In this document: positions 1 through 2,218 of the stretch, in pieces
Position numbering within the stretch: the stretch's first letter is position 1
How the letters are laid out: each line of letters begins with the position of its first letter
From: a virus
Taxonomy: Duplodnaviria > Heunggongvirae > Uroviricota > Caudoviricetes
Length of the DNA: 2,218 nt
Direction: 5' to 3' (one strand)
IMG/VR virus record: IMGVR_UViG_2698536508_000032
The notes under the pieces: model-generated
Database searches by the model: none
Told to the model about the DNA's origin: nothing
What the model saw: the letters and a program-made list of their open reading frames with translations, nothing else
Made by a program: the position numbers and the translations under genes

Positions 1-64
1 TGTGCCCCCATCGCTCTGATAGTCTGGTGTCGTCGGGTCCTTCCTGGAATTATGGCCCGTTACG

Positions 65-76
65 GGGCGGCGACCT
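65..76 (+). other. cosN core, 12-nt cohesive-end sequence GGGCGGCGACCT (copy 1)
   Basis: Exact match to the 12-nt lambda cohesive end, flanked by gttacg on the 5' side and cgcgg on the 3' side as in lambda. Confidence 0.8.
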
Positions 77-115
77 CGCGGTTTTTATCTGTTTATGAGA
101 ATTTTCCGGCAAAAG

Positions 116-132
116 TCAGATCCGATCTTCTT
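116..132 (+). repeat. cosB R3-like terminase small subunit binding element (tcagatccgatcttctt)
   Basis: Occupies the position of lambda R3 (CGTTTCCGTTCTTCTTCG) in the colinear alignment. Its core is AGATCC instead of GTTTCC. Contains two GATC sites (119-122 and 124-127). Confidence 0.6.
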
Positions 133-169
133 CTCTGTAACAGACTGTTTAACAATGAAAATATTAAAA

Positions 170-186
170 AAAGAAAGGATCTGACA
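170..186 (-). repeat. cosB R2-like element, inverted relative to R3 and R1 (minus strand gtcagatcctttctttt)
   Basis: Plus strand reads aaagaaaggatctgac, in the position and orientation of lambda R2 (AAAGAAAGGAAACGACAG). Its reverse complement shares the 12-mer cagatcctttct with R1. Contains GATC at 178-181. Confidence 0.6.
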
Positions 187-214
187 CGAGGCATTTTAGC
201 CAGAAAATGCCATT

Positions 215-231
215 ATCAGATCCTTTCTCAT
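215..231 (+). repeat. cosB R1-like element (atcagatcctttctcat)
   Basis: In the position of lambda R1 (CTGTCGTTTCCTTTCTC). Shares cagatcctttct with inverted R2. Contains GATC at 219-222. Followed by a T-rich tract as in lambda. Confidence 0.6.
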
Positions 232-255
232 TTTTGTTCAATAATTGCGCGTCTG

Positions 256-798
256 TTACTCGCCTTTCTTCTGTAGCAACTTTTCCGGTACGTTTCCGGT
301 TGTTTCTTTCAAGTAATCAGCCAGTATCTGTGGGAGGTTGTCGGCAACTCTGGCACTGGCATTACAGGCTTTAACCACTTCCCTTTTAAGCCTGTCCAGC
401 ATGGCGGGGGTAATCTGTGGGAAGCTCCTTTGCATAGTAAGCGGGAGGATGTCCATGATTGATGAAATCTGACTCGCCAGCTTTGAAAGCGCGTACAGGC
501 AAAACTCAGTATCAATCACGTCACCGCGATCGCGATCGTTTTTAAGTTCCTGCGCCTCTGCCTGTGCTGTCAGTAATCTGATCCTGACTCGTAAAAGTTC
601 ATCATCGTCAATCTCGCCTTTGTCGTTTATAAGCTGGCTAATTGCATTGTTAACCCTATTTTCTATCACGCTGGCAACATCATAAAACGCCTCACGGCCT
701 TTACGCTCAACGGGAGTTACTCCCCACTTGTCGAACGCTGTCGCACTTACACGGCAGCTTTTCGCCATGTTTTTTTTGTTCATCAGATGAGATTTCAT
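256..798 (-). CDS. nu1: Terminase small subunit, lambda Nu1 family (full length, 180 aa from the first ATG)
   Basis: The translation aligns along its whole length with lambda gpNu1 recalled from memory. Examples: N-terminal NKKNMAKSCRVSATAFDKW vs lambda NKKQLADIFGASIRTIQNW (winged-HTH region); RLLTAQAEAQELKNDRDRGDVIDTEFCLYALSKLASQISSIMDILPLTMQRSFPQ vs lambda RLTRAQADAQELKNARDSAEVVETAFCTFVLSRIAGEIASILDGLPLSVQRRFPE; and a conserved C-terminal region. Length (180 aa) matches lambda (181 aa). The start is ambiguous: in-frame ATGs at 796-798, 781-783 and a third further in, none with a strong Shine-Dalgarno sequence. Confidence 0.9.
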   Translation of the reverse strand: MKSHLMNKKNMAKSCRVSATAFDKWGVTPVERKGREAFYDVASVIENRVNNAISQLINDKGEIDDDELLRVRIRLLTAQAEAQELKNDRDRGDVIDTEFCLYALSKLASQISSIMDILPLTMQRSFPQITPAMLDRLKREVVKACNASARVADNLPQILADYLKETTGNVPEKLLQKKGE

Positions 799-799
799 T

Positions 800-837
800 A
801 ATACACCAACTTAATTACTGCTTCAGGTTGGTGTATT
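800..837. repeat. Perfect 11-bp inverted repeat (aatacaccaac, 16-nt spacer, gttggtgtatt) abutting the terS start codon
   Basis: The arms at 800-810 and 827-837 are exact reverse complements. On the minus-strand transcript one arm ends 1 nt before the ATG at 796-798. Confidence 0.5.
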
Positions 838-905
838 GCTTGCATCTTTCCCTTTTCATTCATAAAGATAGATCAAACAACAAAACCACCACCACCCCCC
901 TGAAA

Positions 906-975
906 AGGCTCATAAATAGCGAAAATCCGCGAGGTCTCCGCCCCGTAACAGGTCCATATGCCGGAAAGGACCCGC
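906..975 (-). other. cos: Lambda-type cohesive-end region, copy 2 (cosQ-side flank, cosN, I2-like), inverted relative to copy 1, upstream of terS
   Basis: The reverse complement of 911-975 reads gcgggtcctttccggcatatggacctgttacg|gggcggagacct|cgcggattttcgctatttatga. The 23-mer spanning cosN (gttacg through cgcgg) matches copy 1 (59-81) at 22/23 positions. The following 17 nt of I2-like flank differ from copy 1 at 4 positions but match the lambda sequence more closely, and the cosQ-side flank is about 80% identical to copy 1. Beyond that point (799-905) the sequence diverges from both lambda and copy 1 cosB. Confidence 0.7.
932..943 (-). other. cosN core copy 2, GGGCGGAGACCT on the minus strand (one substitution relative to copy 1)
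   Basis: Plus strand 932-943 is aggtctccgccc. Its reverse complement differs from GGGCGGCGACCT only at position 7 (C to A). Confidence 0.7.
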
Positions 976-998
976 AAAAAAGCCGGATTTCTCCGGCC
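976..998 (-). terminator. Candidate Rho-independent terminator downstream of the 137-aa ORF
   Basis: Minus strand reads ggccggagaaatccggctttttt: a perfect 6-bp GC-rich stem (982-987 pairs with 992-997), a 4-nt loop, then six T. It begins 6 nt after the stop of the 1004..1417 CDS. Confidence 0.6.
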
Positions 999-1003
999 TT
1001 GTC

Positions 1004-1417
1004 TCAGATGGTTTTCAGTATGCGATCGATGTCGCCGTCATCGCCCGGGTTTCTGCCATCGTATGCCATGCCAGCTGATACGGCTTGTGGGCTGTGCATG
1101 TCCATAAAGTTTTCAAAGGCTGCGGTAAGCTCTGGTGCAACCTTCGGGCGTTCCTGCTCTATGGTCATGTTCAGGATGTTTTTAGCCGTATCAACATCAA
1201 TACAAGGCACGTTTGCCATTGCACGTAACAGCGGCTGATAGTCGTCAGATTCATGAAGCGCCATAATCGCATCAGCGCGCGGCTTGTCCTTCTCTTCCAG
1301 GCTGTTAAGTTGATATACGGCCTCGTAGGTTGATAAACCTCTGTCAGCCATTGCCCGCGCTTCGGCTTTAAATTTACTCGCCAGCGGTAGCGTCATGATA
1401 CTTTCATTCGTTGCCAT
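1004..1417 (-). CDS. Hypothetical acidic protein (137 aa), translationally coupled downstream of the D-like gene; function unknown
   Basis: The start ATG at 1415-1417 is preceded by agggggaacg (Shine-Dalgarno GGGGGA) and lies 12 nt after the D-like stop. There is no frame conflict with its neighbours. Composition is acidic (about 23 D/E vs 14 K/R). No similarity to lambda FI, FII, W or Nu3 could be recognised by eye. Confidence 0.6.
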   Translation of the reverse strand: MATNESIMTLPLASKFKAEARAMADRGLSTYEAVYQLNSLEEKDKPRADAIMALHESDDYQPLLRAMANVPCIDVDTAKNILNMTIEQERPKVAPELTAAFENFMDMHSPQAVSAGMAYDGRNPGDDGDIDRILKTI

Positions 1418-1429
1418 CGTTCCCCCTGC

Positions 1430-1765
1430 TTATCGCGCCAGCGGCTGAACGGATACGCCAGAACCCGCAAAGGCGGCGCATTTTTTCGCGTCGGTGTCGG
1501 CGCTCTCAGGCCAGTTAACGGCGGCAATATTGAATATCCCCGTCTTGTAGCACTGTGCTGATTTCTGCGTCGACGTGTCCACGGGGTACGAGGTCAGATA
1601 AACAGCCTTGCCAGATTCCTGACCATCCCACGGCTTAAACTCGCCATTTTCCGCCAGCATCAGCGGGGTAAATTCCTGAATAACGCCAGCATCAGCAGCA
1701 AAATGTACCAGCGTCGTGGATACCTGCTGACTACCTGCAAATAACTCAATGTATGGAGTGTCCAT
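1430..1765 (-). CDS. D: Head decoration protein, lambda gpD family (111 aa)
   Basis: FTPLMLAENGEFKPWDGQESGKAVYLTSYPVDTSTQKSAQCYKTGIFNIAAVNWPESADTDAKKCAAFAGSGVSVQ aligns with lambda gpD [76 protein letters not shown] (from memory). Length matches gpD (110 aa). Shine-Dalgarno cggggggattct precedes the ATG at 1763-1765. Confidence 0.85.
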   Translation of the reverse strand: MDTPYIELFAGSQQVSTTLVHFAADAGVIQEFTPLMLAENGEFKPWDGQESGKAVYLTSYPVDTSTQKSAQCYKTGIFNIAAVNWPESADTDAKKCAAFAGSGVSVQPLAR

Positions 1766-1777
1766 AGAATCCCCCCG

Positions 1778-2218
1778 TTAACCAATTTTGACGATAACAA
1801 ATTTGCGAATATCTGCCGGTACCGGCTGCGGTGCGCTGTGCGTCTGCACGTACTCAATCGCCGGATCGCCGTCCTCAATCCAGTTTTTCGGGTAAAACAT
1901 GTTTTGCGTTGCGCCCGTTCTGACCGCTTCCTGATCCATAATCGCACCATAGGCCACCAGCCCTTTATTGTTGGTGTTACCCAGGACCAGCAAATCAGGC
2001 TCAAGGAAATATTTTTCGGTGCCGTCGCTGTCAGTGTATTTGCCGGAATAGACGACAAGGGCAATATCGCCCAGATAGCCTTTAAAGCTCACCACTTCAC
2101 CCAGGTTTTTACAGGCCAGTTCTGCGGCGTGAGGTAGCCTGAGTTTAACGGAAACTCCTTCCTGAAATAGAATGGCCTCAGAAGGAGCTAATAATGAGCA
2201 GAAAAACCCAACGTTACT
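1778..2218 (-). CDS. E: Major capsid protein, lambda gpE family, C-terminal portion (5' end lies beyond the window)
   Basis: The frame is open from the window edge to the stop at 1778-1780. LGEVVSFKGYLGDIALVVYSGKYTDSDGTEKYFLEPDLLVLGNTNNKGLVAYGAIMDQEAVRTGATQNMFYPKNWIEDGDPAIEYVQTHSAP aligns with the lambda gpE C-terminus LGKAVSYKGMYGDVAIVVYSGQYVENGVKKNFLPDNTMVLGNTQARGLRTYGCIQDADAQREGINASARYPKNWVTTGDPAREFTMIQSAP (from memory). The ORF-track start at 2095 is a GTG inside this longer open frame. Confidence 0.85.
   Translation of the reverse strand, partial: SNVGFFCSLLAPSEAILFQEGVSVKLRLPHAAELACKNLGEVVSFKGYLGDIALVVYSGKYTDSDGTEKYFLEPDLLVLGNTNNKGLVAYGAIMDQEAVRTGATQNMFYPKNWIEDGDPAIEYVQTHSAPQPVPADIRKFVIVKIG

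What the first reader, a model, noticed from the sequence alone, without database searches (positions are those of the whole stretch)
799..931. Divergent cosB-equivalent of copy 2 with a perfect 11-bp inverted repeat at the terS start
Between cosN copy 2 and the terS ATG the first ~22 nt match the lambda I2 region, then the sequence diverges. It contains a CCA-rich polypyrimidine tract (aaaccaccaccaccccc, 881-898), a single R-like element (minus strand gaaaagggaaag, about 847-858) and the perfect inverted repeat at 800-837, whose arm ends 1 nt before the first ATG. The repeat could be a dimeric protein operator, for example an alternative terS recognition site replacing the R1-R3 array, or an mRNA hairpin that occludes the ribosome-binding region and throttles terS translation. 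The weak Shine-Dalgarno and three alternative in-frame ATGs fit regulated, low-level expression.
Basis: seen in the sequence. Interest (0 to 1): 0.5.

Follow-up and report, generated by a model that had tools for sequence, protein, structure and literature searches.

The report
Satellite cosB: terminase R2/R1 sites
The perfect 11-bp inverted repeat in front of the small-terminase gene is most likely the R2 and R1 terminase-binding sites of an ordinary-architecture packaging site (cosB) on a phage-satellite island, not a purpose-built RNA hairpin; it is a new sequence class of a well-known kind of site.

Summary
In detail: AATACACCAAC (800-810) and GTTGGTGTATT (827-837) are perfectly complementary, and the repeat ends 1 nt before the first ATG (798, minus strand). 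The window is the packaging end of a PICI-type satellite next to phoQ in E. coli, the site of EcCICFT073, with a Nu1-family terS in place of rpp. Numbered from the cohesive end (window 943 = 1), the distal arm lies at bp 107-117, the annotated R2 position of phages 21 and 434. The 'CCA tract' lies at bp 51-62 (R3), an IHF-like box at 74-86 (I1), and the proximal arm at 134-144 (R1, closer in than in phages). Complete lambdoid prophages, whose TerS is 49% identical to the island's, carry the same layout. There all three R positions read TGTTG where the island reads TGGTG, and the two residues aligned with the DNA-reading positions of RppA differ (VQ vs AT). Across ~140 islands R2 is invariant and R1 decays without compensation (0 compensatory changes). 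Distant islands have a normal Shine-Dalgarno and no repeat. So this is a canonical R3-I1-R2-R1 cosB of an apparently undescribed specificity class. Any RNA hairpin effect is clade-specific and probably incidental.

The parts
944..979 (-). cosQ-like region and left flank of cosN of cos copy 2 (contains GGGTCCT at 973-967)
   Evidence: Matches the cos regions of lambdoid prophages in most E. coli genomes. Aligns with the same stretch of prophage and EcCICFT073 cos sites. The identity of the cosQ heptamer is from memory of lambda.
932..943 (-). 12-nt cohesive-end sequence of cos copy 2, GGGCGGAGACCT (cos bp 1-12)
   Evidence: Aligned with the annotated cohesive ends of phages 21 and 434. It carries A at position 7, where copy 1 and most relatives have C.
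909..931 (-). cosN right flank and conserved TATTTATGAG box (cos bp 13-35), the part that still matches lambda
   Evidence: It is nearly invariant across 86 distinct island sequences.
882..893 (-).
   Evidence: Same position as annotated R3 (50-65) of phages 21 and 434, and as GTTGTTGTTTAA (51-62) of prophage L162. Class-specific: GGTGGTGGT in all islands and GTTGTTGTT in all 78 phage-type loci. Its match to the R1 sequence is only 8/12 by my own comparison.
858..870 (-). Candidate IHF site I1, TATCTTTATGAAT (cos bp 74-86)
   Evidence: Same position as annotated I1 of phages 21 and 434. It matches YAANNNNTTGATW at 6 of 9 positions; prophage L162 has TATCTAATTGATA (8/9) at the same place (counted by hand). 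Inferred only.
846..857 (-).
   Evidence: It lies between the I1 and R2 positions, is moderately conserved, and is unrelated to the class's R sequence.
827..837 (-). R2-equivalent AATACACCAAC (cos bp 107-117), the ATG-distal arm of the repeat
   Evidence: Annotated R2 of phage 21 is 107-122 and of 434 is 108-123, 'in opposite orientation to R3 and R1'. R2 lies at 106-108 in all 78 phage-type loci, and at 107 in nearly all island loci (104 in three with a shorter R3 tract). The block ACACCAACCTGAA is invariant in 86 distinct island sequences.
811..826 (-). 16-nt spacer between R2 and R1 (about 58-70 nt in the related prophages)
800..810 (-). R1-equivalent GTTGGTGTATT (cos bp 134-144), the ATG-proximal arm; overlaps the position where a Shine-Dalgarno would be
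   Evidence: Same orientation as R3 and opposite to R2. Phage-type R1 GGTTGTTGTWTY matches the R2 complement at 10-12 of 12 positions in all 78 loci. In islands it is intact only in the window's clade and scores 7-8/12 in the other E. coli clades.
256..798 (-). Island-encoded Nu1-family small terminase (180 aa), the presumed reader of this cosB
   Evidence: Pfam PF07471, 81.3 bits against a cut-off of 30. 49% identity over 167 residues to the TerS of prophage L162, E = 5e-55. Start at the first ATG is supported by N-terminal conservation.
65..228 (+). cos copy 1 in the opposite orientation: cohesive end 65-76, R3 115-131, I1-like 138-150, R2 172-185, R1 216-228 (R = TCAGATCCKWTCT), a different cosB class
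   Evidence: Positions are identical to phages 21 and 434. Its R2/R1 pair is itself a 13-bp perfect inverted repeat. The same cosB class lies upstream of terS and terL in prophages L249 and L250.

Best explanation
Window 799-931 (minus strand) is a complete cosB of the standard lambdoid architecture R3 - I1 - R2 - R1, belonging to a non-lambda, non-21 specificity class. The inverted repeat is perfect because R2 (827-837) and R1 (800-810) are oppositely oriented copies of one 11-12 bp recognition sequence, as in other lambdoid cosB sites. Proposed mechanism (inferred): after induction by a lambdoid helper, the island's own Nu1-family TerS binds R3 and R2 through its N-terminal winged-helix domain, probably across an IHF-induced bend at I1, with R1 as an accessory site. 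Its C-terminal part recruits the helper's TerL, which nicks cosN copy 2 (932-943) and packages island DNA leftwards in window coordinates. Shown here: positional and sequence homology of the three R positions; class-specific base changes at all three R positions together with changes in the putative recognition helix; invariance of R2; decay of R1. Inferred: actual binding, the role of IHF, and the use of helper TerL.
For: (1) Context: the window is 100% identical to an island next to phoQ in E. coli O26:H11 11368, carrying an integrase, a small HTH regulator, a RepA-family helicase, gpE- and gpD-like genes, terS, and two inverted cos copies. EcCICFT073 has the same site and layout with rppA in place of terS. 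(2) In the coordinate frame of the annotated phage 21 and 434 records (R3 50-65, I1 74-86, R2 107-123 inverted, R1 150-166), the window has R3' at 51-62, an I1-like box at 74-86, R2' at 107-117 and R1' at 134-144. (3) Complete prophages (L162, L164-L166, and 78 loci in all) carry GGTTGTTGTTT (R3), AAYACAACAACC (R2) and GGTTGTTGTWTY (R1) upstream of a 168-aa terS and terL. That TerS is 49% identical to the island's over its full length. (4) All three R positions read TGGTG in islands and TGTTG in phages. R3 cannot be part of the hairpin, so this points to protein recognition. The proteins differ at the two residues (VQ vs AT) that align with RppA R21-T22, required for cos1 recognition (PMC6739421), and with lambda I16-R17 at the start of helix alpha2 (PMC9026076). 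(5) The R2 block is invariant in 86 distinct island sequences, while R1 varies with the TerS helix unchanged. This fits the published hierarchy in which a conserved-base mutation is most severe in R3, lambda TerS needs R3 plus R2, and N15 manages with R3 alone (PMC9026076). (6) Copy 1's R2/R1 pair is also a perfect (13-bp) inverted repeat.
Against: No binding or packaging data exist for this island or this cosB class. R1' lies at 134-144, not about 150-198 as in phages, and abuts the start codon. It is degenerate in most sister clades, so its contribution here is uncertain. R3' matches the R1' sequence at only 8 of 12 positions and lies in a low-complexity (GGT)n tract. The I1 candidate is weak (6/9). 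The Pfam match covers only residues 33-148; the N-terminal domain model has low confidence (pLDDT 64-77) and the fold search gave no significant hit. The phage-versus-island co-variation amounts to essentially one evolutionary event.
Confidence: 0.72

Rival explanations
1. The repeat is selected as an mRNA hairpin that occludes the ribosome-binding region and keeps terS translation low.
For: In the window's clade the stem is 11/11 with dG about -15 kcal/mol (61 nt) or -18.2 kcal/mol (91 nt, z = -3.0). It covers the only SD-like bases (GGUG) and ends 1 nt before the AUG. No canonical Shine-Dalgarno is present.
Against: There are no compensatory changes and no conservative one-sided changes in 19 distinct variants. 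76% of cells pair, and 8 of 11 pairs depart only by broken pairs. Sister clades score 6-8 of 11 with MFE -3 to -7.6 and often a different fold. Distant islands have AGAGGTGAAA-ATG and no repeat. The arms descend from phage R2 and R1, which lie about 58-70 nt apart and about 30 nt upstream of a separate Shine-Dalgarno. No promoter-like site was found in 799-931, and a terminator-like hairpin lies upstream of cosQ, so it is not known that this stretch is transcribed at a useful level.
Confidence: 0.1
2. Only R3' and R2' matter. The proximal arm is a relic of the ancestral phage R1 that happens to be undecayed in this clade, so the perfection of the repeat has no function.
For: R1' is degenerate in about two thirds of the island loci, while the TerS recognition helix is unchanged. 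Lambda TerS needs R3 and R2, and N15 needs R3 only (PMC9026076). A perfect 11-mer repeat is not vanishingly rare by chance (1.5%).
Against: R1 is well kept (10-12 of 12) in all 78 phage-type loci. In the window's clade R1' carries the same T-to-G class change as R2' and R3', which suggests it tracked the specificity change rather than drifting.
Confidence: 0.13
3. The repeat is an operator for a transcription factor, or for TerS acting as its own repressor, that controls a terS promoter.
For: It is a palindrome directly upstream of a start codon. A terminator-like hairpin after the 137-aa gene implies terS may need its own promoter.
Against: No sigma-70-like promoter was found on the minus strand in 799-931. 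One half-site is not conserved. The homology to R2 and R1 already explains the sequence.
Confidence: 0.05

Closest known systems
cosB of lambda, 434 and phage 21 (R3-I1-R2-R1)
   Same: It lies between cosN and terS. R3 is at about bp 50-65 and R2 at about 107-122 in inverted orientation, with R1 in the R3 orientation and an IHF-like box at 74-86. R2 and R1 form an inverted repeat (PMC9026076).
   Different: The R sequence is GGTTGGTGTATT, against lambda-type TGTCGTTTCCTTTCT and 21-type TTTCATGTCGG. The R2-R1 spacer is 16 nt, so R1 is at 134-144 and abuts the ATG. There is no separate Shine-Dalgarno. It sits on a satellite, not a phage.
cosB of the E. coli lambdoid prophage lineage represented by O111:H- 11128 (L162), L164-L166
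   Same: Homologous along its whole length, with the same R3, I1 and R2 positions. The TerS is 49% identical and has the same AFDKWG helix.
   Different: The phage R core is TGTTG where the island has TGGTG. R1 is at 176-189 with a separate GGAGAGGAG Shine-Dalgarno. The helix residues are VQ against AT. No isolated phage in the INPHARED collection carries this cosB.
EcCICFT073 cos1/cos2 with RppA (Fillol-Salom 2018, 2019; Murialdo and Feiss 2022)
   Same: Same chromosomal site (next to phoQ), the same capsid, decoration and 137-aa genes, and two oppositely oriented cos sites flanking the packaging-specificity gene. The forward cos is read by the island's own factor and the reverse cos carries phage-like R elements.
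   Different: The window has a full Nu1-family TerS instead of Rpp; neither window protein matches RppC, whereas L005's protein does. The Rpp-type forward cosB has no repeated R sequences (PMC9026076), whereas this one has the full array.
SaPI-encoded TerS (pac-type satellites)
   Same: The satellite brings its own small terminase to redirect the helper's large terminase to satellite DNA (concept as summarised in PMC6739421).
   Different: This is a cos system with a defined R-element cosB rather than headful pac recognition. The comparison was not tested here.
Phage N15 cosB
   Same: A lambda-like cos in which the R sites downstream of R3 are dispensable (PMC9026076). The distant islands, which lack R1, move in that direction.
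   Different: N15 has R3 only, whereas this island keeps R2 invariant.

Membership tests
Lambdoid cosB (R3-I1-R2-R1) | Lies directly to the right of cosN, between cosN and the terS start | tested here: met
   The cohesive end is at 943-932 and the ATG at cos bp 146.
Lambdoid cosB (R3-I1-R2-R1) | Three related R sequences, with R2 inverted relative to R3 and R1 | tested here: met
   R2' and R1' are perfect inverted copies. R3' is in the R1 orientation and shares the TGGTG core, but matches at only 8/12.
Lambdoid cosB (R3-I1-R2-R1) | Fixed distance from cosN: R3 at about bp 50-65 and R2 at about 107-122 | tested here: met
   R3' is at 51-62 and R2' at 107-117, against the annotated 50-65 and 107-123. 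R2 lies at 104-108 in about 215 loci.
Lambdoid cosB (R3-I1-R2-R1) | R1 about 40-45 bp beyond R2 (bp 150-166 in lambda-type and 21) | tested here: not met
   R1' is at 134-144, and the related prophages have it at 176-189. The position of R1 is therefore variable across classes.
Lambdoid cosB (R3-I1-R2-R1) | IHF site I1 between R3 and R2 | tested here: inconclusive
   TATCTTTATGAAT at bp 74-86 matches the consensus at 6 of 9 positions. Prophage L162 scores 8/9 at the same place.
Lambdoid cosB (R3-I1-R2-R1) | R sites bound by the cognate TerS winged-helix domain | not testable with these tools
   Only correlative evidence: the R core and the putative recognition-helix residues change together between the phage and island classes.
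Nu1-family small terminase | Sequence membership (Pfam PF07471) | tested here: met
   81.3 bits against a cut-off of 30, E = 7.9e-23.
Nu1-family small terminase | [quoted passage not shown] | tested here: inconclusive
   The model gives alpha1 8-14, alpha2 21-25, a beta-hairpin at 31-40 and alpha3 41-59, at pLDDT 64-77 only. The best fold hits are MerR-type winged helices but none is significant (E >= 0.13). The alignment with lambda-type, 21-type and Rpp proteins keeps W22 and G26.
Nu1-family small terminase | C-terminal TerL-binding segment | not testable with these tools
   The alignment with the prophage TerS runs to residue 167. Function was not tested.
Rpp-type cos PICI (EcCICFT073 type) | Encodes an Rpp protein | tested here: not met
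   Neither the 180-aa nor the 137-aa protein matches RppC. The control L005 matches at E = 2.4e-31.
Rpp-type cos PICI (EcCICFT073 type) | Island layout: integrase, regulator, replication genes, gpE/gpD homologs, two cos sites | tested here: met
RBS-sequestering regulatory hairpin | Pairing maintained across relatives, with compensatory changes | tested here: not met
   0 compensatory changes, 76% of cells paired, and 8 of 11 pairs departing only by broken pairs. The hairpin is absent in distant islands.
Intrinsic terminator | G+C-rich stem followed by a T run | tested here: not met
   The stem is A/T-rich and is followed by AATGAAATC. It was not reported by the scan.

The most novel reading that the evidence does not exclude
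The island has evolved a private packaging specificity from a helper-phage lineage by a minimal recoding: one base in each R site (TGTTG to TGGTG) and two residues in the TerS recognition helix (VQ to AT). In the window's clade, moving R1 against the start codon has created a dual-use element. As DNA it is a terminase site, and as RNA it forms a hairpin of about -15 kcal/mol that limits terS translation, coupling terminase dosage to the packaging site.
Probability: 0.12. Interest if true: 0.55.

Novelty: new member of a known kind. Interest (0 to 1): 0.3.

Why it matters
It explains an eye-catching palindrome as a standard part of a packaging site, so it should not be pursued as a new regulatory element. 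It also shows that some E. coli cos-type satellites carry a full Nu1-family TerS with a complete, cognate R3-I1-R2-R1 cosB. The characterised Rpp-type islands, by contrast, are reported to have a cosB without repeated R sequences. The phage-versus-island pair differs by one base per R site and two residues in the putative recognition helix. That gives a compact natural experiment for the TerS-cosB recognition code, which has been studied genetically in lambda, 21 and N15.

Tried and rejected
- A single-sequence scan of genome contigs with the TerS found nothing, and the alignment-based scan gave only 3 loci. The metagenome and viral scans supplied the comparative set.
- PDB sequence searches with the 180-aa and 137-aa proteins gave no Nu1 or Rpp hit, so the island is not Rpp-type.
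- The structure model had low confidence and the Foldseek search gave no significant match. I use only its N-terminal secondary-structure order, and only as weak support.
- The promoter and terminator scan found nothing in 799-931. It also missed the terminator-like hairpin at about 977-1000 that is visible by eye.
- The INPHARED phage collection holds no record with this cosB beyond cosQ-cosN.
- I considered that the conserved distal arm is an anti-Shine-Dalgarno mimic selected to pair with the RBS. I rejected this because the same element at the same distance from cosN occurs in phages and in L005, where no start codon is nearby, and because the pairing is not maintained.
- I considered inversion of the segment between the two cos copies. 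I rejected it because terS and rpp keep the same orientation in all islands examined; what differs between islands is which cosB module sits at each cos.

Full report
**Observation.** The repeat is exactly as described. AATACACCAAC (800-810) and GTTGGTGTATT (827-837) are perfectly complementary with a 16-nt spacer. On the minus strand the repeat ends one base before the first ATG (798) of a 180-aa ORF. A perfect 11-bp inverted repeat with a 3-40 nt loop appears in 1.5% of dinucleotide-preserving shuffles. As RNA the stretch folds to -18.2 kcal/mol, z = -3.0. Small corrections: the CCA tract is at 883-899 and is C/A-rich, not polypyrimidine, and gaaaagggaaag is the complement of 846-857.

**Context.** Window 1-2129 is 100% identical to an island of about 10 kb next to phoQ in E. 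coli O26:H11 11368 and many other strains. The island carries an integrase, a small HTH regulator, a RepA-family helicase, SSB and PerC, followed by gpE-like capsid, gpD-like decoration, a 137-aa gene, cos, terS, an inverted second cos and a 93-aa gene. The last 90 bases of the window are an IS3-family end that cuts the capsid gene in the window's source. The ORF is a Nu1-family small terminase (PF07471, 81 bits).

EcCICFT073, the characterised cos-type PICI, sits at the same site with the same genes, but has rppA where the window has terS, and it also has two oppositely oriented cos sites (PMC6092414, PMC6739421). Neither window protein matches RppC. A sister island, L005, has a clear Rpp (E = 2.4e-31).

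**What the repeat is.** A DNA search with the L005 version of this segment led to complete lambdoid prophages (L162, L164-L166). There the same segment lies between cosN and a 168-aa terS followed by terL. That TerS is 49% identical to the window's protein over 167 residues.

The annotated records of phages 21 and 434 give the reference frame, numbered from the first base of the cohesive end: R3 at 50-65, IHF site I1 at 74-86, R2 at 107-123 'in opposite orientation to R3 and R1', R1 at 150-166, and terS at about 189. The table compares the positions.

| Element | phage 21 / 434 | window copy 2 | prophage L162 |
|---|---|---|---|
| R3 | 50-65 | 51-62, GGTGGTGGTTTT (the CCA tract) | 51-62 |
| I1 | 74-86 | 74-86, TATCTTTATGAAT | 74-86, TATCTAATTGATA |
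| R2 | 107-123 | 107-117, AATACACCAAC (distal arm) | 106-117 |
| R1 | 150-166 | 134-144, GTTGGTGTATT (proximal arm) | 187-198 |
| terS ATG | 189-190 | 146 | 228 |

The repeat is therefore the R2/R1 pair of a standard-architecture cosB. Copy 1 of the window (R3 115-131, R2 172-185, R1 216-228) is a second cosB class at the canonical positions. Its R2/R1 pair is itself a 13-bp perfect inverted repeat. Lambda's R2 and R1 share 16 identical bp (PMC9026076).

**Protein site or RNA hairpin.** I compared about 215 loci.
- All 78 phage-type loci have R3 GGTTGTTGTTT, R2 AAYACAACAACC at bp 106-108, and R1 GGTTGTTGTWTY at 176-189. R1 matches the R2 complement at 10-12 of 12 positions.
- All island loci have GGTGGTGGT at R3. 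The E. coli-type islands have AAYACACCAACC at bp 107 (104 in three loci with a shorter R3 tract).
- The class change (TGTTG to TGGTG) thus occurs at all three R positions, including R3, which cannot take part in the hairpin.
- The proteins differ at two residues, VQ in phages against AT (or VT) in islands. These align with RppA R21-T22, which are needed for cos1 recognition (PMC6739421), and with lambda I16-R17 at the start of recognition helix alpha2 (PMC9026076).

Within the islands, the block ACACCAACCTGAA (most of R2 plus its flank) is invariant in 86 distinct sequences. R1 occurs in six forms. It is intact only in the window's clade (about 41-43 of about 140 loci) and scores 7-8 of 12 in the other E. 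coli clades. The pair-count tool finds 76% of cells paired and no compensatory or conservative changes; 8 of 11 pairs depart only by broken pairs. Enterobacter, Citrobacter and Kosakonia islands (56-58% TerS identity) keep an R2-like element at 107 but have AGAGGTGAAA-ATG and no second arm. This pattern fits the published hierarchy (R3 most critical, lambda TerS needing R3 plus R2, N15 using R3 alone; PMC9026076). It does not fit a selected hairpin.

**Start codon.** M1, H4, L5 and M11 are conserved down to 56% identity, while M6 becomes L, so the first ATG is the likely start. In this clade the only SD-like bases (GGTG) lie inside R1, so the hairpin could well depress translation. I regard that as a by-product of R1 having moved against the ATG.

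**Mechanism proposed (inferred).** The island's TerS binds R3 and R2, probably across an IHF bend, with R1 as an accessory site. It recruits the helper's TerL through its C-terminal part, cosN copy 2 is nicked, and the island is packaged. Copy 1 carries a different phage-type cosB that also occurs in prophages upstream of terS and terL. It may allow recognition by a helper's own TerS, much as EcCICFT073's reverse cos carries phage-like R elements resembling those of its resident prophage.

**Limits.**
- There are no binding or packaging data for this island or this cosB class.
- The R3' similarity is weak (8/12) and lies in low-complexity sequence.
- The I1 candidate is weak (6/9).
- The N-terminal domain model has low confidence, and the fold search gave no significant hit.
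- The phage-versus-island co-variation is essentially one evolutionary event.
- I found no paper in the searchable library describing this cosB class or TerS-type cos PICIs at this level. PMC6092414 notes that some Gram-negative PICIs carry terS homologs.

**Verdict.** The feature is real and significant, and it is explained as the R2/R1 sites of a canonical cosB of a new sequence class on a TerS-encoding cos satellite. It is a new member of a known kind and of modest interest.

Noticed in passing
window 2129-2218: This is the end of an IS3-family (IS600-like) element. It interrupts the gpE-like capsid gene, which is intact (1056 bp) in O26:H11 11368, so the island in the window's source may be defective.
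   Followed up: partly
window 932-943 versus 65-76: The two cohesive-end sequences differ at position 7: GGGCGGAGACCT in copy 2 and GGGCGGCGACCT in copy 1. The A variant occurs in only 5 of about 135 island loci. Islands as a group show many cohesive-end variants, for example GGGCGTCAGGCG in 15 loci.
   Followed up: partly
window 65-228; L249, L250: Copy 1 is a complete R3-I1-R2-R1 cosB of a different class (R = TCAGATCCKWTCT) at canonical positions. The same class lies upstream of a 182-aa terS and terL in prophages, and it is about 71% identical to the nu1 region of phage SerU-LTIIb.
   Followed up: partly
L005 2392-2660; L161 1500-1800; L163 1495-1790; L014 2490-3380: cosB modules appear to be shuffled between islands. 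The phage-type GGTTGTTGTAT cosB sits on the reverse cos in L005 and L163 and on the forward cos in L161, where no rpp or terS gene is annotated between the cos sites. EcCICFT073's reverse cos carries R elements (CATGTCCGG) resembling those of the resident prophage (CATGTCGG).
   Followed up: partly
L004 1-404; L006-L013 about 5040-6510: Several TerS-type islands lie next to a 5'-truncated gpE gene followed by FI and FII of a lambdoid prophage. The island may have inserted into, or recombined with, the prophage's capsid gene. Cargo between them includes an abortive-infection family gene and FRG-domain genes.
   Followed up: no
L014 about 2540-2555 (cos bp 53-65) versus window 882-893: The proposed R3 of Rpp-type islands (ACACCACCACCAC) is the reverse complement of the TerS-type island R3 (GGTGGTGGTGG), at the same distance from cosN. 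This could be an inverted R3 or coincidence in a low-complexity tract (PMC9026076).
   Followed up: no
window about 977-1000, minus strand: A terminator-like hairpin, GCCGGA-GAAA-TCCGGC followed by TTTTTT, lies between the 137-aa gene and cosQ. It is conserved in EcCICFT073 and L005 but was not reported by the terminator scan. It raises the question of how terS is transcribed.
   Followed up: no
window 1004-1417, minus strand: The 137-aa protein conserved between TerS-type and Rpp-type islands has no Pfam or PDB match. One RefSeq record annotates a homolog of the same length at the same position as a head-tail connector. In other islands an AlpA-family HTH gene occupies this position.
   Followed up: no
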